From: a virus
Direction: 5' to 3' (one strand)
DNA: 64,000 bases
Virus record (IMG/VR): IMGVR_UViG_3300021963_000057
Span: 40,627-104,626 of that record
A program made the position numbers and the translations under genes. Below are positions 23,536-29,999 of this stretch, piece by piece. Under the pieces are notes generated by a model. It searched no databases and was not told the DNA's origin. It was given only the letters and a program-made list of their open reading frames with translations. Positions within the stretch are counted from its first letter, which is position 1. Every line of letters begins with the position of its first letter.

Positions 23536-23627
23536 GGAAGATGATGCAGCGGGGATGGTCCTGCGACTGGCCTTGAAAACCAGGTTCTCAGAAATGGGAT
23601 GGGGTTCGACTCCTCCGTCTTCCGCCA
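23536..23627 (+). tRNA. tRNA-Ser (TGA), 8/4 acceptor/T-stem configuration
   Basis: GGAAGATG/CGTCTTCC 8 bp, GGGG/CCTC 4 bp T stem, long variable arm, GCCA end. Confidence 0.85.
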
Positions 23628-23726: not shown

Positions 23727-23818
23727 GCCAGCGAGACTGGGTAGTCAGAGAGGTCTTATACACCTTTTAGCGCCAGATTAGCGTTCTTGAGTGAGTTCGA
23801 GTCTCACCGCTGGTACCA
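23727..23818 (+). tRNA. Atypical tRNA, anticodon TAT (Ile?), short D arm and long variable arm
   Basis: GCCAGCG/CGCTGGT, loop CTTATAC, T arm GTGAG-TTCGAGT-CTCAC, ACCA. Confidence 0.7.
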
Positions 23819-24867: not shown

Positions 24868-24929
24868 AGGATCGGTTCAGCAATAAACAAGCTAACTTTG
24901 GATGTCTAGCGACAAAAACGATCCTGTTG
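24868..24929 (+). ncRNA. Scaffold RNA copy 1 (Pro-like anticodon hairpin)
   Basis: AGGATCG-N3-CAGCA ... CGATCCTGTTG; inner hairpin loop TTTGGAT. Confidence 0.65.
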
Positions 24930-24935
24930 TATTTT

Positions 24936-25009
24936 CTCGGTGTAGTGAAATGGTATCACCCGTGCTTTGGGAGCATGTAGCGCAAGTTCGATTCTTGCCA
25001 CCGAGACCA
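24936..25009 (+). tRNA. tRNA-Pro (TGG)
   Basis: Loop TTTGGGA, CCA. Confidence 0.92.
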
Positions 25010-25017
25010 GTATTTTT

Positions 25018-25092
25018 GGGCTGATGGTATAATTGGGAACACAGTGGCCTTGCAAGTCACAGTTGGGGGTTCGATTCCCCCTCGGTCCACCA
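25018..25092 (+). tRNA. tRNA-Ala (TGC)
   Basis: G3:U70, loop CTTGCAA, CCA. Confidence 0.9.
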
Positions 25093-25097
25093 AATTT

Positions 25098-25172
25098 GGT
25101 TCAGTAGCATAGTGGCAGTGCAGCATCTTCATACGGTGCCTTGTGTGAGTTCGATTCTCACCTGAACCACCA
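25098..25172 (+). tRNA. tRNA-Met (CAT), elongator-like
   Basis: Loop TTCATAC, CCA. Confidence 0.88.
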
Positions 25173-25178
25173 GATTAT

Positions 25179-25254
25179 GGGTCTTTAGCTCAGTGAACAG
25201 AGCTCTTGGCTACGAACCAAGAGGTCGGGGGTTTGAATCCCTCAAGACCCTCCA
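25179..25254 (+). tRNA. tRNA-Arg (ACG)
   Basis: Loop CTACGAA, CCA. Confidence 0.9.
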
Positions 25255-25260
25255 TGATTT

Positions 25261-25334
25261 TCCCGGATAGTTAAATGGCATAACAATCGGCTGATAACCG
25301 GTCATCGCAAGTTCGATTCTTGCTCTGGGAACCA
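25261..25334 (+). tRNA. tRNA-Ile (GAT)
   Basis: Loop CTGATAA, CCA. Confidence 0.9.
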
Positions 25335-25339
25335 TTTTT

Positions 25340-25403
25340 AGGATAGTAACAGCAACTAAAATACTTCAAACTTGTAACTTGAAAAGTAAAATCTATCCTG
25401 TTG
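25340..25403 (+). ncRNA. Scaffold RNA copy 2 (Thr TGT anticodon hairpin)
   Basis: AGGATAG-N3-CAGCA ... CTATCCTGTTG; inner loop CTTGTAA. Confidence 0.68.
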
Positions 25404-25409
25404 TATTAT

Positions 25410-25483
25410 ATCTCGATAGTGTAATGGCAGCATACCAGTCTCCAAAACTGTTGGTCGGGGTTCGAGTCCCTGTCGGGATGCCA
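25410..25483 (+). tRNA. tRNA-Trp (CCA)
   Basis: Loop CTCCAAA, GCCA. Confidence 0.92.
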
Positions 25484-25512
25484 GTGTTAGTAAAAAAAGA
25501 AAGGTGATTGAT

Positions 25513-26001
25513 ATGAAAAAGTTCGACATACAAGAAGTTAAGCAATTCCTTGCAAGTCAAGGACCAGATACGAAAGTATATTTGGGTGCTGACTCAGAAC
25601 GTATCCGTGTAAACGGTGTATGGTATGCAGACTATGCTTTGGCTGTCGTAGTTCATATTGATGGCCGCCATGGTTGTAAGATTTTTGGTTTCGTTCAACG
25701 TGAGTTGGACTATGACCACAAGAAAAGTAAACCTGCAATGCGGTTAATGACCGAAGTGTATAAGGTTTCAGAATTGTTCCAAGACTTGGCTGATGTATTA
25801 GAAGATTTCCATGTTGAAGTTCATTTGGACTTAAACAAAGATGACTTGTACGGAAGTTCATGTGTTGTACAACAAGCGATTGGTTATATCAAGGGTACAT
25901 GTAACATGACACCTATGGTTAAACCAGACGCACCAGCTGCAAGTTTCTGTGCTGACAGATTGAAAAGAATCTTGGCAGAACAAGAAGCTTTGCAGGTCTA
26001 A
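25513..26001 (+). CDS. RNase H-like YkuK (DUF458) family protein
   Basis: VYLGADS, RLMTEV..., EVHLDL, KPDAPAASFCADR. Confidence 0.8.
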   Translation: MKKFDIQEVKQFLASQGPDTKVYLGADSERIRVNGVWYADYALAVVVHIDGRHGCKIFGFVQRELDYDHKKSKPAMRLMTEVYKVSELFQDLADVLEDFHVEVHLDLNKDDLYGSSCVVQQAIGYIKGTCNMTPMVKPDAPAASFCADRLKRILAEQEALQV

Positions 26002-26049
26002 CAGACCCCCGTGAATAAACACGGTTAAAAATTCCAAAGTTTACTTTGG

Positions 26050-26124
26050 GGAGATATTAGTTTAGTGGCAAAACCACGGGTTGTGATTCCGTTATCATGA
26101 GTTCGATTCTCATATATCTCCCCA
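26050..26124 (+). tRNA. tRNA-His (GTG)
   Basis: G-1:C73, loop TTGTGAT, CCA; flanked by TTTACTTTGGG/CCCAAAGTAAA. Confidence 0.92.
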
Positions 26125-26137
26125 AAGTAAATTTTAT

Positions 26138-26212
26138 GCCTCGTTAACTCAGCGGTAGAGTAACTCTTTTACACGGAGAAGGTCGGCAGTTCAATCCTGT
26201 CACGAGGTACCA
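26138..26212 (+). tRNA. tRNA-Val (TAC)
   Basis: Loop TTTACAC, CCA. Confidence 0.9.
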
Positions 26213-26215
26213 AGT

Positions 26216-26382
26216 TTTGTAAGTGTAGATGTTGAGAAAGTTTTTGTAGGCATACAAGAATGAGGATAGTGCTTTGCCGATGCCAAGTATCAACTATTAC
26301 TACGTACCTCTATACAGTCGGCCGCTTCAAAGAAAATACTGTTAAAATGGTGAGAAATAAGCGAGGTCTCATTACTTACAAA
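26216..26382 (+). ncRNA. Candidate ~165-nt ncRNA between tRNA-Val and tRNA-Phe
   Basis: Ends pair (TTTGTAAGT/ACTTACAAA, TGAGA/TCTCA); no ORF in the track. Confidence 0.35.
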
Positions 26383-26390
26383 TTCATTAT

Positions 26391-26466
26391 GCTGCTTTAG
26401 CTGATGTGGTCATAGCAGGGGTCTGAAGAACCTCGGAAAGTAGTTCGATTCTACTAGGCAGCACCA
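26391..26466 (+). tRNA. tRNA-Phe (GAA)
   Basis: Loop CTGAAGA (G37), CCA. Confidence 0.9.
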
Positions 26467-26472
26467 AGTTTT

Positions 26473-26573
26473 AGGATAGGTTCAGCAAAAAATTCACATG
26501 CGAATGGTTCGCAATTTGCCTTTTAAGCAAACCTTGTGGGTTCAATTCCCACTGTAAAAAAACTATCCTGTTG
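26473..26573 (+). ncRNA. Scaffold RNA copy 3 (tRNA-Lys TTT mimic without full acceptor stem)
   Basis: AGGATAG-N3-CAGCA ... CTATCCTGTTG enclosing D-like hairpin, TTTGC-CTTTTAA-GCAAA, GTGGG-TTCAATT-CCCAC. Confidence 0.75.
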
Positions 26574-26578
26574 TATAT

Positions 26579-26655
26579 ACCCAAGTGACGGAATTGGTAT
26601 ACGTACTTGTCTCAAACACAAGGTTATGTGGGCTCGAATCCCACCTTGGGTACCA
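26579..26655 (+). tRNA. tRNA-Leu (CAA), short variable loop
   Basis: Leu-type D loop GGAATTGGTATAC, loop CTCAAAC, ACCA. Confidence 0.85.
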
Positions 26656-26658
26656 TAT

Positions 26659-26733
26659 GGGTTGTAAGCTTAAGTGATGAAGCAACCGGCTCTTAACCGG
26701 AAGAACAGAGTTTGATTCTCTGACGACCCACCA
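26659..26733 (+). tRNA. tRNA-Lys (CTT)
   Basis: Loop CTCTTAA, CCA; non-standard D/T loops. Confidence 0.82.
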
Positions 26734-26738
26734 ATCAT

Positions 26739-26812
26739 GCTCTTATAGGTAAATGGCATACCACATCCATGGTAAGGATGTATTCTAAGTTCGATTCTTA
26801 GTAGGAGCACCA
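26739..26812 (+). tRNA. tRNA-Thr (GGT)
   Basis: Loop ATGGTAA, CCA. Confidence 0.88.
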
Positions 26813-27009
26813 ACTTGTTTTAATGTTGTTAAGACAAACTCTTTTTCTTGTTGAATATATAATTCATCATCTATGAAAGATTTTTTCTCAGTAACATATG
26901 ATTCGATGAAATCAGATTCAATACAGTAATAAGCATGAGGCACATATTTTTGGTGTGCGAATAGTTTATAAAATATTTGTACTGTAGGTTTTTGTTCGTA
27001 AGGTATCAT
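26785..27009 (-). CDS. Hypothetical protein antisense to tRNA array
   Basis: 74 aa from ATG 27009; ATAAATA just upstream on minus strand; fills a 210-nt gap. Confidence 0.45.
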   Translation of the reverse strand: MIPYEQKPTVQIFYKLFAHQKYVPHAYYCIESDFIESYVTEKKSFIDDELYIQQEKEFVLTTLKQVGAPTKNRT

Positions 27010-27022
27010 ATGAGTATTTATT

Positions 27023-27099
27023 GCCCCGGTGACGGAATTGGTATACGTGTTGGTCTTAGAAGCCAAATTTTAGGAGTTCGAGTCTCCTCTGGGGCACCA
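27023..27099 (+). tRNA. tRNA-Leu (TAG), short variable loop
   Basis: Loop CTTAGAA, ACCA. Confidence 0.87.
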
Positions 27100-27105
27100 A
27101 ACATT

Positions 27106-27180
27106 CCGGCGTTAGTATAATGGATAATACAGCGGTCTTCTACACCGTGAATGTGGGTTCGATTCCTGCACGCCGGACCA
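27106..27180 (+). tRNA. tRNA-Arg (TCT)
   Basis: Loop CTTCTAC, CCA. Confidence 0.9.
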
Positions 27181-27198
27181 TTTTTTGAGGAGTTTAAT

Positions 27199-27774
27199 AT
27201 GCCATCAGTATTTCTTACAAGTGACACACACTTTGGTCACGCTGGTGTGTGTAGATTTCTCCGTGATGACGGTGTGACAAAGCTTAGGCCATGGGATAAT
27301 CCAGAAGAAATGGATGAAGAAATGGTGAAGCGTTGGAACGAAACAGTCGGGCCAAATGATAAAGTATATCATCTTGGTGATGTTGTTATCAACCGCAAAG
27401 CACTTAGCATTATGCATAGACTTAACGGTGATAAAGTTCTGATTCGTGGTAACCATGATATCTTCAAAGATGAGGATTATAGACAACACTTCCGTGAGCT
27501 ACGTGCTTATCATGTAATGAACGGAATGATTCTGTCTCATATTCCAATTCATACAGAAAGTCTTGGTCGTTTTGGTGTCAACATTCATGGACATCTTCAT
27601 GCTAACCGTGTGACTATGGGAAATGGATATAGAAGTGTAATCGACACCAGATACCATTGTGTTTGTGTTGAACAAACAGATTTCAGACCGATTCTTTTTG
27701 AGGATGTTATGAAACGAATCAAAGAAGAAGGTGGTGAGGTCGGTTTCCGTAATGGAAACGGACCTGCCATGTGA
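27199..27774 (+). CDS. Calcineurin-like metallophosphoesterase
   Basis: SDTHFGH, HLGD, GNHD, HGHLH; GAGGAG RBS. Confidence 0.92.
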   Translation: MPSVFLTSDTHFGHAGVCRFLRDDGVTKLRPWDNPEEMDEEMVKRWNETVGPNDKVYHLGDVVINRKALSIMHRLNGDKVLIRGNHDIFKDEDYRQHFRELRAYHVMNGMILSHIPIHTESLGRFGVNIHGHLHANRVTMGNGYRSVIDTRYHCVCVEQTDFRPILFEDVMKRIKEEGGEVGFRNGNGPAM

Positions 27775-27775
27775 T

Positions 27776-27859
27776 GCGAGTATGGGGGAATTGGTAGACC
27801 CAGCAGACTTAAAATCTGCCGCCTTGTGCGTACCGGTTCGACTCCGGTTACTCGTACCA
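27776..27859 (+). tRNA. tRNA-Leu (TAA)
   Basis: Loop CTTAAAA, variable arm, CCA. Confidence 0.92.
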
Positions 27860-27879
27860 AATATTTTTTAAAAATATGC

Positions 27880-27908
27880 TTGCCAAGAGATTGAAAAGCA
27901 TATATAAT
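27880..27908 (+). promoter_or_regulatory. Sigma70 promoter
   Basis: TTGCCA-N17-TATAAT. Confidence 0.65.
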
Positions 27909-27919
27909 ACACACATGAT

Positions 27920-27994
27920 GCGGGCGTGGTGCTAGTGGTAACACGTAACCTTGCCAAGGTCAAGTTGCGGGTTCGATTCCCGCCGCCCGCTCCA
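27920..27994 (+). tRNA. tRNA-Gly (GCC)
   Basis: Loop TTGCCAA, TCCA. Confidence 0.93.
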
Positions 27995-28000
27995 ATTTTC

Positions 28001-28074
28001 GCCCTACTAGTATAATGGCATTACACTGGTTTTGTAATCCTGTGATGGCAGTTCGATTCTGTCGTGGGGCACCA
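28001..28074 (+). tRNA. tRNA-Thr (TGT), weak anticodon stem
   Basis: Loop TTTGTAA, two T-T mismatches in stem, CCA. Confidence 0.8.
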
Positions 28075-28080
28075 AACATT

Positions 28081-28132
28081 GTGGTATATTTACAACATAC
28101 CGCTTGACTACAACAAATTTTTGTGTTATACT
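28081..28132 (+). promoter_or_regulatory. Palindromic operator plus promoter (copy 3)
   Basis: GTGGTATATTTACAAC, 7 nt, TTGACT-N17-TATACT. Confidence 0.7.
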
Positions 28133-28161
28133 ACACAGTATTGAAAGATTGAAAAGGTTTT

Positions 28162-28317
28162 AGGTTAGTTACAGCATTATTCATTAATACTGGACTGTTA
28201 GGTAACTATGGTAAATGCTGGAGGTTTCGACCTTTGAAGGTGTTTATTGAAATAGTCCTAACAAAGGTGAGTTTCGATTTTCTCACTGTAAACAAAAAGT
28301 AGAAAGCTAACCTGTTG
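28162..28317 (+). ncRNA. Scaffold RNA copy 4 (long hairpin plus T-arm-like hairpin)
   Basis: AGGTTAG-N3-CAGCA ... CTAACCTGTTG; TGTTAGG/CCTAACA, GTGAG..TTCGA..CTCAC. Confidence 0.68.
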
Positions 28318-28322
28318 TTTTT

Positions 28323-28442
28323 AGAATACTCACAGCAAACAATTTTTCCGCTTATAACGGAGAGGTTACAGGTTCGAATCCTGTTTTACGCTTCATGCGT
28401 GAATAGCACAATTGGTAGTGCGCTAAAAAATGTATTCTGTTG
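28323..28442 (+). ncRNA. Scaffold RNA copy 5 (circularly permuted tRNA-Ile TAT)
   Basis: AGAATAC-N3-CAGCA ... GTATTCTGTTG enclosing anticodon arm, T arm, loop-closed acceptor, D arm. Confidence 0.78.
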
Positions 28443-28463
28443 TTTTTTTATGAGGAGTAAGTT

Positions 28464-29891
28464 ATGTCAACTTTTGTAGATGCCGTTGTTAATCAAGATG
28501 CCCGTACCGCAAACGGTATGAAGGCTCGTAAGTCCACTGCTAATGCAGTTGTAGATTTGTTCTACAATGCAGGTGCTTCACGTGGTAAAAACATTGTGCC
28601 TGCTTTTGCAGCTGCAATGGCAGAAAACCGTGAACTCGCTTTGCGTGTTGCTGCTTGGTTGCGTGATGCTCGTGGTGGTGCCGGTGAACGTGAATCGTTC
28701 CGTACTATCTTGCGTTATTTGGAAAAGAATGACGTAGAAGCCGCAAAAGCATTGTTGACAAAGGTTCCTGAATTGGGCCGTTGGGACGACATTTTTGTAT
28801 TTGATTCTGACGTTATGAAGTCAGCAGCATTCACTATGTTGGGTGATGCGCTTCGTGCGAAGAATGGATTAGCTGCAAAGTGGACTCCTCGCCAAGGTAA
28901 ACTAGCGGCTGAAATCCGTCAGTTCTTTGGTATGTCCCCAAAGTTTTACCGTAAGTCTTTGGTTGAAATGACCAAAGTAGTTGAAACTCAAATGTGTGCG
29001 AAAGATTGGGATTCCATTAATTTCTCACACGTACCTTCCGTAGCGGCATCCCGTTACAAGAAGGCTTTTAATCGTAACACTCCAACTTATGCAGCTTATG
29101 TTGCTTCGTTGGTTAAGGGTGATAACCCTGAAGTTAAGGTTAATGCAGGTGCTGTGTTCCCATACGATGTGCTGAAAGGCCGTATCGGTGGTTACATTAA
29201 ATTCGACAAGACCGAATTGGACTTGGTGCAAAAACAATGGGAGGCTTTGCCTAACTTTGTTGGTGACGCAAACATTCTACCTTTGGTGGATGTTTCAGGT
29301 TCAATGACCTGCGCTGCAGGTGGTTATGGTTCCAAATCAGGTCTAACCTGTTTGGAAGTAGCAGTCTCTTTGGGACTATACTTGGCAGATAAGAATGAAG
29401 GCAAGTTCAAGGACACCTTCCTAACTTTCTCTGACAAACCAGAATTGTTGCACTTGAAAGGTAACATTAACCAAAAGATTGACCAAATGGTTAAATCTGA
29501 TTGGGGTATGTCTACTAACCTACACAAGGCGTTTGAAAGAATCCTTGATGTAGCAGTAAAAGGTGGCGTGCCACAAGAAGAAATGCCAGCGATGGTATTG
29601 ATTCTGTCAGACATGCAATTTAACGCTTGCGTTAGACATGATGACTCTGCTATGCAGATGATTGCACGTAAGTACAAAGAAGCAGGATATGATTTGCCAA
29701 AAGTTGTATTCTGGAACTTGAATGCCGCATACGGCAACGCTCCAGTAAAGTTCGATACTTCTGGTACTGCATTGGTATCTGGTTTCTCACCAGCAGTCGT
29801 AAAACCACTGTTGGCTGGTGACCTAGAAACCTTTACACCAGAATCTGTGATGCTTAAAACCATCATGGATGACCGTTACAAAGTATTGTGA
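28464..29891 (+). CDS. DUF2828 family, Ro60/TROVE-like protein with C-terminal vWA domain
   Basis: RDARGGAGER, GRWDD, AAKWTPR, MIDAS-like DVSGSM, SDMQF, VFWNL, VSGFSP. Confidence 0.85.
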   Translation: MSTFVDAVVNQDARTANGMKARKSTANAVVDLFYNAGASRGKNIVPAFAAAMAENRELALRVAAWLRDARGGAGERESFRTILRYLEKNDVEAAKALLTKVPELGRWDDIFVFDSDVMKSAAFTMLGDALRAKNGLAAKWTPRQGKLAAEIRQFFGMSPKFYRKSLVEMTKVVETQMCAKDWDSINFSHVPSVAASRYKKAFNRNTPTYAAYVASLVKGDNPEVKVNAGAVFPYDVLKGRIGGYIKFDKTELDLVQKQWEALPNFVGDANILPLVDVSGSMTCAAGGYGSKSGLTCLEVAVSLGLYLADKNEGKFKDTFLTFSDKPELLHLKGNINQKIDQMVKSDWGMSTNLHKAFERILDVAVKGGVPQEEMPAMVLILSDMQFNACVRHDDSAMQMIARKYKEAGYDLPKVVFWNLNAAYGNAPVKFDTSGTALVSGFSPAVVKPLLAGDLETFTPESVMLKTIMDDRYKVL

Positions 29892-29915
29892 TGGTATGGG
29901 GACTCGAAAGAGTCC

Positions 29916-29999
29916 TCATTTTAAAACACACTGCCGAAGTTGGTTCGGTTAGGCAGGCTGCATCCAACAAGCCATGTCCGTGAGTGTGTTTTAAAATGA
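29916..29999 (+). ncRNA. Structured RNA closed by AAAACACACT/AGTGTGTTT stem (copy 2)
   Basis: Perfect 17-bp closing stem; preceded by GGGGACTC-GAAA-GAGTCCTC hairpin. Confidence 0.45.

What the first reader, a model, noticed from the sequence alone, without database searches (positions are those of the whole stretch)
24868..29891. Ro60-like protein with a family of five scaffold RNAs displaying tRNA parts: candidate Y-RNA-like tRNA-decoy system
Seen: five elements (24868, 25340, 26473, 28162, 28323) share a 7-nt arm + N3 + CAGCA at the 5' end and the complementary arm + GTTG at the 3' end. The arms covary (AGGATCG/CGATCCT, AGGATAG/CTATCCT twice, AGGTTAG/CTAACCT, AGAATAC/GTATTCT). Invariant CAGCA can also pair with invariant TGTTG, giving a possible pseudoknot. 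The cargo differs but is tRNA-like: a Pro-like loop TTTGGAT, a Thr loop CTTGTAA, D+anticodon(Lys UUU)+T arms without CCA, a long hairpin with a T-like arm, and a permuted tRNA-Ile. Copies 4 and 5 lie between a promoter and the RBS of a DUF2828 TROVE/vWA-like gene. Established: bacterial Ro60 binds Y RNAs built from a Ro-binding stem plus a tRNA-like domain, and tRNA-Lys(UUU) is the PrrC target. Inference: the protein binds the common scaffold and presents non-chargeable anticodon mimics as decoys or sensors for host anticodon nucleases or modification enzymes. I do not recognise this RNA family, but cannot exclude that it is catalogued.
Basis: partly seen in the sequence, partly recalled or inferred. 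Interest (0 to 1): 0.95.

Follow-up and report, generated by a model that had tools for sequence, protein, structure and literature searches.

The report
Phage Ro60-like protein's tRNA-mimic RNAs
This phage's tRNA cluster holds five small RNA genes that share one conserved "handle" but display different tRNA parts, mostly anticodon arms; they are very probably partner RNAs of the adjacent Ro60-shaped protein, a pairing seen in very different phages and found in neither Rfam nor the papers searched.

Summary
Five + strand elements (24868, 25340, 26473, 28162, 28323) each have UUUU, a 7-nt arm, 3 nt, CAGCA(A), a variable cargo, the exact complementary arm and GUU(G).

In 80 related metagenomic loci, the 5' half alone occurs 226 times on the gene strand and 2 times on the other. 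Of 186 distinct copies, 180 have the exact partner arm (6.5 expected by chance), with 33 arm variants.

The same module lies beside the homologous gene in Aeromonas, Synechococcus, Felixounavirus, Cronobacter, Stenotrophomonas, Mycobacterium, Listeria, Campylobacter and Vibrio phages.

The 475-aa DUF2828/DUF7788 protein folds like Ro60 (TROVE ring plus vWA).

Cargos are tRNA parts. Short ones are a 5-bp stem with a 7-nt anticodon loop (60 of 85, against 1.2 in shuffles). Copy 3 is a tRNA-Lys-like body. Copy 5 is a YrlA-type tRNA mimic with strong covariation.

Rfam lists none of them as a family; copy 5 scores only 35.7 bits against YrlA (cut-off 69).

The proposed CAGCA:UGUUG pseudoknot is not supported.

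Binding to the protein and a decoy role against tRNA-cutting defences are inferred, not shown.

This scan has already reported the same family on other DNA (at least 21 genomes), with the same reading.

The parts
24868..24929 (+). Copy 1 (62 nt). Handle AGGAUCG-GUU-CAGCA ... CGAUCCU-GUUG. The cargo is a small bulged hairpin with loop UUUGGAU (Pro UGG-like, but with A37). It starts 5 nt after the CCA of tRNA-Asn, and its 3' arm ends 10 nt before tRNA-Pro.
   Evidence: R1 model 66.3 bits. The same subfamily occurs in L001, L004, L021, L025, L027, L033 and L043.
25340..25403 (+). Copy 2 (64 nt). Handle AGGAUAG-UAA-CAGCA ... CUAUCCU-GUUG. The cargo is an anticodon-arm mimic: UUCAA/UUGAA stem, A.C closing mismatch, loop CUUGUAA (Thr UGU).
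   Evidence: R1 model 68.5 bits.
26473..26573 (+). Copy 3 (101 nt). Handle AGGAUAG-GUU-CAGCA ... CUAUCCU-GUUG. The cargo is a tRNA-like body (D arm, anticodon arm with CUUUUAA for Lys UUU, T arm) with a degenerate acceptor stem and no CCA. In the 99%-identical relative L004 the cargo is identical except that the anticodon is UCU.
   Evidence: Rfam tRNA 36.3 bits at 26492-26560; not called by ARAGORN.
28104..28132 (+). Promoter-like site TTGACT-17-TATACT with an extended -10 TG, about 30 nt before copy 4. A similar site stands at the same place in relatives.
   Evidence: 10 of 12 matches; relatives. A consensus match only.
28162..28317 (+). Copy 4 (156 nt, long class). Handle AGGUUAG-UUA-CAGCA ... 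CUAACCU-GUUG. The cargo has conserved blocks (CUAUGGUA, UGGAG, UUGAAGG, the hairpin GUGAGUUUCGAU..CUCAC, and CAAAAAGUAGAAA). What it mimics is not identified.
   Evidence: Alignment A5, where 7 of 18 predicted pairs show compensatory changes. It is usually the first RNA of the gene's own transcription unit.
28323..28442 (+). Copy 5 (120 nt, YrlA-like). Handle AGAAUAC-UCA-CAGCA ... GUAUUCU-GUUG. The cargo is a whole tRNA-like fold opened between the D and anticodon arms: anticodon-like hairpin CUUAUAA (Ile UAU), T arm GGUUCGAAUCC, loop-closed 7-bp acceptor stem, D arm. Its 3' arm ends 12 nt before the Shine-Dalgarno sequence of the gene.
   Evidence: Rfam YrlA 35.7 bits, full length, E 5.5e-5, cut-off 69. 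Alignment A3: 27 pairs, 15 with compensatory changes.
28464..29891 (+). Gene for the 475-aa Ro60-like protein: TROVE-like helical ring plus a vWA domain with an intact MIDAS motif (D276-x-S278-x-S280, T351, D383).
   Evidence: Pfam DUF7788 3.6e-47 and DUF2828 2.1e-20. AF2 model pLDDT 92.6, pTM 0.91. The top 12 Foldseek PDB hits are all Ro60 or Rsr, E 8e-9 to 4e-6, TM up to 0.63. Invariant residues.
29898..29924 (+). Terminator-like hairpin GGGGACUC-GAAA-GAGUCCUC followed by AUUUU, closing the unit promoter, copy 4, copy 5, gene.
   Evidence: Read from the sequence. The consensus scan did not list it, because the tail has only 4 U.
25504..26001 (+). RNase H-like protein (Pfam PF04308) inside the tRNA/RNA array. 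It is a recurrent neighbour of the Ro-like gene; whether it belongs to the system is uncertain.
   Evidence: tblastn finds it within 6-7 kb of the Ro-like gene in 43 of 80 loci and in Synechococcus BUCT-ZZ01, Cronobacter S13 and Vibrio 1.081.O, where it is the next gene.

Best explanation
The five elements are genes for small non-coding RNAs of one modular family. Each has two parts.

The first part is a constant handle: a 7-8 bp terminal stem whose sequence is free to vary, then 3 nt and a single-stranded CAGCAA on the 5' side, with GUU and a short U-rich tail after the 3' arm. The second part is an exchangeable cargo that copies part or all of a tRNA: an isolated anticodon arm, a tRNA body, or a YrlA-type closed tRNA.

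The handle is most likely the binding site of the Ro60-fold protein encoded next door (DUF2828/DUF7788), so the RNAs would be that protein's Y RNAs.

Copies 1-3 sit in the tRNA polycistron with tRNA-like spacing, so RNase P and tRNA 3'-end processing would release them. Copies 4 and 5 are made from the protein gene's own promoter. The last copy lies next to the ribosome-binding site, so it may also let the protein regulate its own translation.

The resulting RNP would present anticodon arms that cannot be charged to factors that read anticodon arms. My preferred target is host tRNA-cutting defence nucleases, with the RNP acting as a decoy or inhibitor alongside the phage's own tRNA genes.

Shown here: the RNA structure, the modularity, the anticodon-loop mimicry, the Ro60 fold, and the gene-RNA linkage across distant phages. 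Inferred: binding, processing, autoregulation and the decoy role. For the decoy role alone I give about 0.3.
For: Structure and family. 226 5' anchors lie on the gene strand against 2 on the other. 180 of 186 distinct copies have an exact Watson-Crick partner arm, against 6.5 (maximum 14) when arms are dealt at random. There are 33 arm variants. The outer stem has 8 pairs, 5 with compensatory changes, none broken in 83 sequences.

Linkage to the protein. One or two copies end 15-90 nt before the ATG in most loci. The module recurs on the same strand beside homologous genes in nine cultured phage lineages. In whole-record scans of five of them (76-156 kb), 12 of 13 R1 hits lie within 10 kb of the gene on its strand.

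Protein. It has the Ro60 fold with an intact MIDAS motif.

Precedent. Y RNAs are encoded next to Ro60 on the same strand in bacteria and phages, there are several per genome, they are modular, and one is a tRNA mimic (PMC4201824). Thermus phage phiLo Ro60 binds two upstream Y-like RNAs (PMC12135203).

Mimicry. 60 of 85 short cargos have a stem of at least 5 bp and a 7-nt loop with U33 and R37, against 1.2 in shuffles. 43 of 60 loops are identical to real tRNA anticodon loops. Hairpin stems covary under the same loop. Copy 5's tRNA fold has 15 of 27 pairs with compensatory changes.

Decoy lead. The commonest anticodons are UGU, UCU and UUU. [quoted passage not shown] The Lys mimics keep U39, and some read UAAUCA, whereas 22 of 24 distinct real phage tRNA-Lys(UUU) have C39. 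A Ro60-like gp130 of phage Bas63 counters the Ppl defence system in a knockout screen (PMC11482910).
Against: No binding, processing or expression experiment exists for any member. RNA-library contigs only show that the region is present in metatranscriptomes.

The handle lacks the Ro-binding motifs known so far: GGUCCGA in animals and GNCGAAN0-1G in YrlA.

The mimic stems are A/U-only and marginally stable, at -0.4 to -2.5 kcal/mol.

The displayed anticodons cover many amino acids, more than any one nuclease would explain.

AriB also needs D-loop contacts (PMC12409363), which isolated anticodon arms lack.

U39 in the mimics may simply reflect their A/U-rich stems.

The host, and any defence system in it, are unknown.

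Anticodon positions do not change faster than the rest of the cargo in near-identical pairs (0.061 against 0.052 per nt).
Confidence: 0.65

Rival explanations
1. These are classical Y RNAs that act as a tether or gate. The RNAs bind the Ro-like protein and link it to a host exoribonuclease such as PNPase (a RYPER-like machine) or to another nuclease, redirecting RNA decay during infection. On this view the tRNA-like parts serve only for stability, processing and modification, not as decoys.
For: This is the established mode of Ro60 with Y RNA in Deinococcus and Salmonella, and of phiLo Ro60 with Yrl RNA and PNPase in vitro (PMC4201824, PMC12135203). The protein has the Ro60 fold. An RNase H-like PF04308 gene is a recurrent neighbour.
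Against: It does not explain why exact 7-nt anticodon loops of many different tRNAs are kept while their stems drift. It also does not explain why one genome needs five to eight different cargos.
Confidence: 0.2
2. This is an RNA-repair or tRNA quality-control platform. The Ro-like ring captures damaged or misfolded tRNAs, and the handle RNAs regulate access or recruit healing and sealing enzymes.
For: Ro60 binds misfolded RNA ends in its cavity (2i91 and 9nf8 are among the top structural hits). A metallophosphoesterase lies in the array. RtcB and RNA ligase genes lie near the homologue in Listeria LP-048, and Rnl2 in Aeromonas LAh_6. ROT/TROVE has been proposed as a repair platform (PMC7824862).
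Against: No RtcB, Rnl1 or Rnl2 gene was found in the held part of this record, but the record is only about 62% complete, so this weighs little. The idea does not explain isolated anticodon arms.
Confidence: 0.1
3. These are purely cis-acting elements: processing or spacer signals of the tRNA operon and a translational operator in the leader of the Ro-like mRNA, with no trans-acting RNA.
For: The copies are spaced like tRNAs inside the polycistron. The last copy abuts the Shine-Dalgarno sequence, and in L045-L056 the 3' arm is followed directly by GAAAGGAG.
Against: Copies downstream of the gene (Mycobacterium phage Archie, Felixounavirus HY02) and far from any tRNA cannot be operators or tRNA spacers. 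Conserved tRNA-like and anticodon-arm cargos are not needed for a processing signal.
Confidence: 0.04
4. These are repeat or mobile DNA (MITE-like inverted repeats) or decaying tRNA genes, with no RNA function.
For: They are short inverted repeats flanking variable inserts, present in many copies per genome.
Against: Strand bias is 226 to 2. The arms differ between copies yet always stay complementary. Single-stranded CAGCAA is invariant across phages of different phyla of hosts. Cargo hairpins covary.
Confidence: 0.01

Closest known systems
Ro60 (Rsr) with bacterial and phage Y RNAs: YrlA, YrlB, Yrn1 (Rfam RF02553; Chen et al. 2014, PMC4201824)
   Same: A ring-shaped TROVE plus vWA protein. 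Several small RNAs are encoded next to it on the same strand. The RNAs are modular: a terminal stem with a conserved 5'-strand motif and a large internal loop, plus an effector module. One RNA per genome is a tRNA mimic with T arm, D arm and closed acceptor stem, and copy 5 has this architecture.
   Different: The protein belongs to other Pfam families (DUF2828/DUF7788) and shares about 15% identity with solved Ro60s. The handle motif is CAGCAA after a 3-nt spacer, not GNCGAAN0-1G or GGUCCGA. Copy 5 scores half the Rfam cut-off, and the other four do not match at all. Many cargos are bare anticodon arms or tRNA bodies. There are five to eight or more copies, embedded in tRNA arrays.
Thermus phage phiLo Ro60 with Yrl1 and Yrl2 (PMC12135203; PDB 9KOP, 9L5Y)
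   Same: A phage-encoded Ro60-fold protein with two Y-like RNAs directly upstream of its gene. 9kop and 9l5y are among the structural hits.
   Different: The phiLo RNAs were picked by a CGAA motif and show no reported anticodon mimicry. Binding is shown there and not here.
Bas63 gp130, a Ro60-like protein next to the tRNA genes of a Felixounavirus (PhageMaP preprint, PMC11482910)
   Same: The gene context matches the DUF2828 gene of Felixounavirus HY02, where I find four handle RNAs in the tRNA region. The authors guessed that some of the 'tRNA genes' are Y RNAs. The knockout loses protection against the Ppl defence system.
   Different: No RNA was defined in that work. I did not verify by sequence that gp130 is the homologue.
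Phage tRNA arrays as counter-defence against anticodon nucleases (PMC10264068, PMC11464382, PMC12409363)
   Same: Same genomic setting. The anticodons most often displayed include the known PARIS targets Lys UUU and Thr UGU. The phage's own tRNA-Lys carries a change at position 39, as does T5 tRNA-Lys.
   Different: Those are functional, chargeable tRNAs that replace cut host tRNAs. The elements here have no usable acceptor end and would have to act by binding, not by decoding.

Membership tests
YrlA (Rfam RF02553) | Score at or above the curated gathering threshold (69 bits) | tested here: not met
   Copy 5 scores 35.7 bits, E 5.5e-5, aligned full length. Copies 1-4 have no hit at E up to 10. 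The Mycobacterium phage Archie homologue has no hit at E up to 0.1.
YrlA (Rfam RF02553) | tRNA-like domain: T arm, closed acceptor stem, D arm, V stem-loop | tested here: met
   For copy 5 and 13 relatives: 27 pairs, 15 with compensatory changes; GGUUCGAnUCC T loop and AGCnCAAUUGGUAG D arm. Copies 1-4 do not meet it.
YrlA (Rfam RF02553) | GNCGAAN0-1G motif near the 5' end (proposed Ro60 contact; PMC4201824) | tested here: not met
   The invariant motif here is CAGCA(A), 3 nt after the 5' arm.
Y RNA (general) | Encoded close to a Ro60 homologue on the same strand | tested here: met
Y RNA (general) | Terminal stem formed by the 5' and 3' ends, plus a large internal loop | tested here: met
   An 8-bp covarying stem, flanked inside by a G-poor 5' strand and an A-rich 3' strand.
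Y RNA (general) | Physically bound by Ro60 and dependent on it for stable accumulation | not testable with these tools
   Needs RIP/CLIP, EMSA, or Northern blots in a gene knockout.
Ro60 / TROVE protein | HEAT-repeat ring (TROVE) followed by a vWA domain | tested here: met
   AF2 model pLDDT 92.6. The top 12 Foldseek PDB hits are Ro60, Rsr or phiLo Ro60, aligned over the full length, TM 0.36-0.63.
Ro60 / TROVE protein | Sequence membership (Pfam TROVE, or a phmmer hit to solved Ro60) | tested here: not met
   Pfam reports only DUF7788 and DUF2828. There is no Ro60 hit by sequence in the PDB.
Ro60 / TROVE protein | MIDAS motif in the vWA domain | tested here: met
   D276, S278, S280, T351 and D383 are invariant in 77 sequences.
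tRNA | Cloverleaf with a paired acceptor stem and a free 3' end for charging | tested here: not met
   ARAGORN calls none of the five. Copy 3 has a degenerate acceptor stem and no CCA. Copy 5's acceptor stem is closed by a loop.

The most novel reading that the evidence does not exclude
The Ro60-like protein and its handle RNAs form a programmable display platform. By swapping the cargo, phages present any host anticodon arm as a non-chargeable bait that traps, inhibits or reports on tRNA-directed immune nucleases (PARIS AriB-like, PrrC/RloC-like and others). That would be an RNA-based anti-defence class working side by side with nuclease-resistant phage tRNAs.
Probability: 0.3. Interest if true: 0.9.

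Novelty: new variant of a known kind. Interest (0 to 1): 0.8.

Why it matters
It would give a partner RNA and a testable job to DUF2828/DUF7788. tblastn finds this protein family in 701 phage records, including Felixounavirus, Listeria Pecentumvirus, KVP40-like vibriophages, Fletchervirus and mycobacteriophages of the genus Faithunavirus.

It would extend the Ro60/Y-RNA system with a new handle motif and a new cargo type: bare anticodon arms.

It would explain odd 'tRNA-OTHER' and over-long tRNA annotations in phage genomes.

If the decoy idea holds, it adds an RNA mimic to the phage answers to tRNA-cutting immunity.

Several cultured phage-host pairs carry the system, so every step can be tested at the bench.

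Tried and rejected
1. CAGCA:UGUUG pseudoknot: rejected.
- C11 is invariant, but its proposed partner (the 4th nt after the 3' arm) is G in 114 copies, A in 38 and U in 24.
- CCGCA variants show no compensating change.
- Leader copies replace GUUG with GAAAGGAG.
- The permuted Cronobacter S13 form has no 3' GUUG at all.
- With no linker between the 3' arm and GUUG, and only 3 nt between the 5' arm and CAGCA, the two helices cannot form together (my own geometric reasoning).

2. Anticodon as a mutational hot spot: not supported. There are two cases of cargos identical except UUU versus UCU (window versus L004; L033 versus L027). Over 33 near-identical pairs, however, the rate is 0.061 per nt at the anticodon against 0.052 elsewhere.

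3. Complex prediction of the Ro-like protein with the RNase H-like neighbour gave no verdict (score 0.00). This is not evidence either way.

4. RNA-library contigs from four metatranscriptome runs cover the elements and the gene. One contig spans 28229-28978. Contigs cannot show transcription, ends or strand, and DNA carry-over is possible.

5. megablast of the region against the phage collection found no match.

6. RtcB, Rnl2 and Rnl1 were not found in the held record, which is about 62% complete. The Rnl1 control also failed, so this is uninformative.

7. The N3 spacer does not pair with the nucleotides before the 3' arm. I found no consistent complementarity by eye in A2.

8. The Sim et al. 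2020 review (PMC10870794) is not held.

Full report
**What is in the window.**
The window is the last 64 kb of a 104.6-kb linear IMG/VR virus record, which CheckV estimates to be about 62% complete. Between about 20.8 and 30.8 kb lies a + strand array of 28 ARAGORN tRNA genes, with a few small protein genes among them.

Five elements share one frame, at 24868-24929, 25340-25403, 26473-26573, 28162-28317 and 28323-28442. The frame is UUUU, a 7-nt arm, 3 nt, CAGCA, a cargo of 36 to 130 nt, the perfectly complementary arm, GUUG, and a U-rich tail. A pattern for the 5' half finds exactly these five, against 0.28 expected. The rest of the record holds no other perfect copy.

Copies 1-3 start 5-6 nt after the CCA of the preceding tRNA, and their 3' arm ends 10 nt before the next tRNA. 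RNase P and tRNA 3'-end trimming would therefore release them; this is inference. Copies 4 and 5 lie between a TTGACT-17-TATACT site and the ribosome-binding site of a 475-codon gene (28464-29891). A hairpin plus AUUUU follows that gene.

**Is the shared frame an RNA structure?**
The search for related loci returned 80 IMG/VR loci whose homologous protein is 68-99% identical. To avoid circularity I anchored only on the 5' half (TTAG-N5-N3-C[AC]GCA).

- There are 226 anchors on the gene strand and 2 on the other.
- Of 186 distinct copies, 180 have the exact Watson-Crick complement of the five variable arm bases, plus CT, within 320 nt.
- When arms are dealt at random among anchors, the mean is 6.5 and the maximum 14.
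- Thirty-three arm variants occur.
- RNAalifold on 83 short copies gives an 8-bp stem with 5 compensatory pairs and no broken pair.

The consensus is UUUU | A-G-R-w-U-n-n | N3 | CAGCAA | about 8 G-poor nt | cargo | about 5 A | arm' | GUU(G/A/U) | U-rich.

The proposed CAGCA:UGUUG pseudoknot fails. Its partner positions vary without compensation. It is absent from leader copies and from a permuted form. It is also sterically incompatible with the stem. CAGCAA is better read as a single-stranded recognition motif. It sits where YrlA RNAs carry GNCGAAN0-1G (PMC4201824).

**The protein.**
Pfam finds DUF7788 (3.6e-47) and DUF2828 (2.1e-20). Sequence search of the PDB finds nothing.

An AlphaFold2 model built on 77 diverse homologues has pLDDT 92.6 and pTM 0.91. 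Its twelve best Foldseek hits in the PDB are all Ro60: Xenopus 2i91, 1yvr and 1yvp; human 9nf8, 9nep, 9nfa and 9nen; Thermus phage phiLo 9kop and 9l5y; and Deinococcus 2nvo. They align over the whole length, with E from 8e-9 to 4e-6 and TM up to 0.63. vWA domains follow further down the list.

The MIDAS residues DxSxS, T and D are invariant. The protein therefore has the Ro60 fold but belongs to its own sequence family. tblastn finds that family in 701 phage records, where it is often annotated 'RNA-binding protein' or 'Ro-like RNA binding protein'.

**Linkage of RNA and gene.**
In most of the 80 loci, one or two copies end 15-90 nt before the ATG.

I built a covariance model from the short copies (R1) and also ran a generic scan for stem plus N3 plus CAGCA. 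Both find the module on the gene's strand in cultured phages whose protein is only 32-48% identical:

- Aeromonas LAh_6: eight copies, five of them in tandem before the gene.
- Synechococcus BUCT-ZZ01.
- Felixounavirus HY02: four copies in the tRNA region, with arms AGACCnn.
- Cronobacter S13.
- Stenotrophomonas DLP_6.
- Mycobacterium phage Archie: three copies just downstream of the gene, one of them YrlA-like with a CUGUUAA hairpin.
- Listeria LP-048: three copies upstream.
- Campylobacter CP30A: two copies upstream.
- Vibrio phage 1.081.O.

Whole-record scans of five of these genomes (76-156 kb) put 12 of 13 R1 hits within 10 kb of the gene and on its strand.

In Cronobacter S13, two genes annotated as tRNAs of 121 and 113 nt carry the module in permuted form. 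A hairpin-closed stem followed by AUU-CAGCA is inserted at the anticodon position of an otherwise normal tRNA with CCA. The recognisable unit is therefore a helix followed by N3 and CAGCA.

**The cargos.**
The cargos fall into four length classes.

Class i (about 50-70 nt; copies 1 and 2):
- 60 of 85 distinct cargos form a stem of at least 5 bp with a 7-nt loop carrying U at position 2 and a purine at position 6. This is anticodon-arm geometry. Shuffled cargos give 1.2, with a maximum of 5.
- 43 of the 60 loops are identical to a real tRNA anticodon loop in the same data.
- Loops are kept while stems covary. For example, CUUCUAA sits on UUAGA/UCUAA, UUUGA/UCAAA, UUCGA/UCGAA and UCAAA/UUUGA.
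- Over all classes, the commonest anticodons are UGU (17), UCU (13), UUU (10), UGA (9) and GGA (9).

Class ii (about 95-110 nt; copy 3): tRNA bodies lacking a usable acceptor end. Copy 3 matches Rfam tRNA at 36.3 bits.

Class iii (about 113-122 nt; copy 5): anticodon-like hairpin, T arm, loop-closed acceptor stem and D arm, entered between the D and anticodon arms. Fifteen of 27 pairs show compensatory changes. It gives a full-length but sub-threshold YrlA match.

Class iv (about 150-190 nt; copy 4): conserved blocks, and a GAGUUUCGA hairpin followed by CAAAAAGUAGAAA. It is usually the first RNA of the gene's own unit. I could not identify what it mimics.

**Is it catalogued?**
Rfam 15 gives no match at these places, even at E up to 10, apart from the weak YrlA and tRNA matches above. 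It gives none for the Archie, Listeria or Campylobacter copies.

Full-text searches turned up related work but no description of this handle or of anticodon-arm cargos:
- Y RNAs near TROVE-annotated Ro60 in 254 bacteria and 22 phages (PMC4201824).
- phiLo Ro60 with Yrl1 and Yrl2 (PMC12135203).
- A remark that the Ro60-like gp130 of Bas63 may use some 'tRNA genes' as Y RNAs, and that gp130 counters the Ppl defence system (PMC11482910).

The library lacks most subscription journals, so prior description cannot be excluded. Earlier follow-ups of this same scan reached the same reading on other genomes: 26 notes in at least 21 genomes.

**How it most likely works.**
The comparative evidence makes the handle the probable binding site of the Ro60-like protein. 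The cargo would then be an effector module, as in known Y RNAs.

The cargos are faithful anticodon arms or whole tRNA shapes that cannot be charged. Their natural clients are therefore proteins that read anticodon arms. Three features point, weakly, to tRNA-cutting defence nucleases.

1. The elements live inside phage tRNA arrays, which are known counter-measures (PMC10264068, PMC11464382).
2. The most displayed anticodons include the PARIS AriB targets Lys UUU and Thr UGU. The minor target Asn GUU also occurs (PMC12409363).
3. AriB depends on U36AAUC|A41, and T5 escapes by changing position 39. Here 22 of 24 distinct real tRNA-Lys(UUU) have C39. The Lys mimics keep U39, and several read UAAUCA on a UUUGA/UCAAA stem. 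From memory, that stem resembles E. coli tRNA-Lys.

There are caveats. The A/U-only stems would give U39 anyway. AriB also needs the D loop. The anticodon range is broad. The host is unknown.

The main alternative is a classical Y-RNA tether to a ribonuclease, or an RNA-repair platform. An RNase H-like PF04308 gene is a recurrent neighbour: it occurs in 43 of 80 loci, and also in cyanophage, T4-like and KVP40-like phages. A metallophosphoesterase, and in other phages RtcB and RNA ligase genes, lie nearby. Contact between the Ro-like and RNase H-like proteins could not be assessed.

**Verdict.**
The elements are a modular Y-RNA-like family linked to a Ro60-fold protein across very distant phages. 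The protein-RNA binding and the decoy function remain to be shown. I rate it a new variant of a known kind (Ro60 with Y RNA), of high interest because it is widespread, sharply defined and directly testable in cultured phages.

Noticed in passing
L084:8895-9137 (Cronobacter phage S13, NC_028773.1 132703-132945): Two genes annotated as tRNA-Ser (121 nt) and tRNA-OTHER (113 nt) are normal tRNA bodies with CCA. Each has an insert at the anticodon position: GUAGAAAAA, then a hairpin-closed 7-bp stem, then AUU-CAGCA. This is a circularly permuted version of the handle.
   Followed up: partly
window 25504-26001; L089:6483-7001; L083:3682-4143; L084:12745-13155: An RNase H-like protein (Pfam PF04308) recurs near the Ro-like gene in 43 of 80 metagenomic loci and in three distant cultured phages. 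It may be a third component of the system.
   Followed up: partly
window 26473-26573 versus L004:3547-3647; L033:4258 versus L027:3703: Two pairs of tRNA-body cargos are identical except for the middle anticodon base (UUU for Lys versus UCU for Arg). Short copies show the same UUU/UCU alternation on identical stems. Overall, however, the anticodon does not change faster than the rest of the cargo.
   Followed up: yes
window 28162-28317 and alignment A5: The long class keeps UGGAG opposite UUGAAGG, flanking a variable hairpin. By eye this could form tandem G.A pairs with a 3-nt bulge (K-turn-like). It also keeps a GAGUUUCGA hairpin and CAAAAAGUAGAAA. What the class mimics is unknown.
   Followed up: no
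window 27151-27774: A calcineurin-like metallophosphoesterase gene lies inside the tRNA array. Phosphoesterase genes also lie near the Ro-like gene in Stenotrophomonas DLP_6, Cronobacter S13, Mycobacterium phage Archie and Listeria LP-048. It may be an RNA end-healing enzyme.
   Followed up: partly
window 26659-26730, 23536-23623 and 23727-23818: Rfam finds a tRNA at 26659-26730 (49.7 bits) that ARAGORN missed. ARAGORN's tRNA-Ile(tat) at 23727-23818 is 92 nt long; like 23536-23623, it matches only the tRNA-Sec model, and weakly. These may be further unusual tRNA-like genes.
   Followed up: no
window 29920-29997: After the gene's hairpin, a long-range inverted repeat (uuuuaaaacacac ... gugugugUUUUAAAA) encloses about 50 nt of GC-rich sequence, just before tRNA-Gly. 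It may be another structured RNA.
   Followed up: no
L087:3469-4020 (Listeria phage LP-048): A ROOL RNA (RF03087) match at 90 bits, just under the cut-off of 99.1, lies in the tRNA region about 1 kb upstream of the handle RNAs.
   Followed up: no
L083:2737-3137 (Synechococcus phage BUCT-ZZ01): A phage-encoded two-piece (permuted) tmRNA lies 4 kb upstream of the Ro-like gene: RF04321 at 111.9 bits and RF01850 at 94.5 bits.
   Followed up: no
window 28447 (loose end in run X15): A metatranscriptome contig from a relative continues after copy 5 with AGAUUGG-GUU-CAGCAA. That relative therefore carries a further handle RNA before the gene.
   Followed up: no
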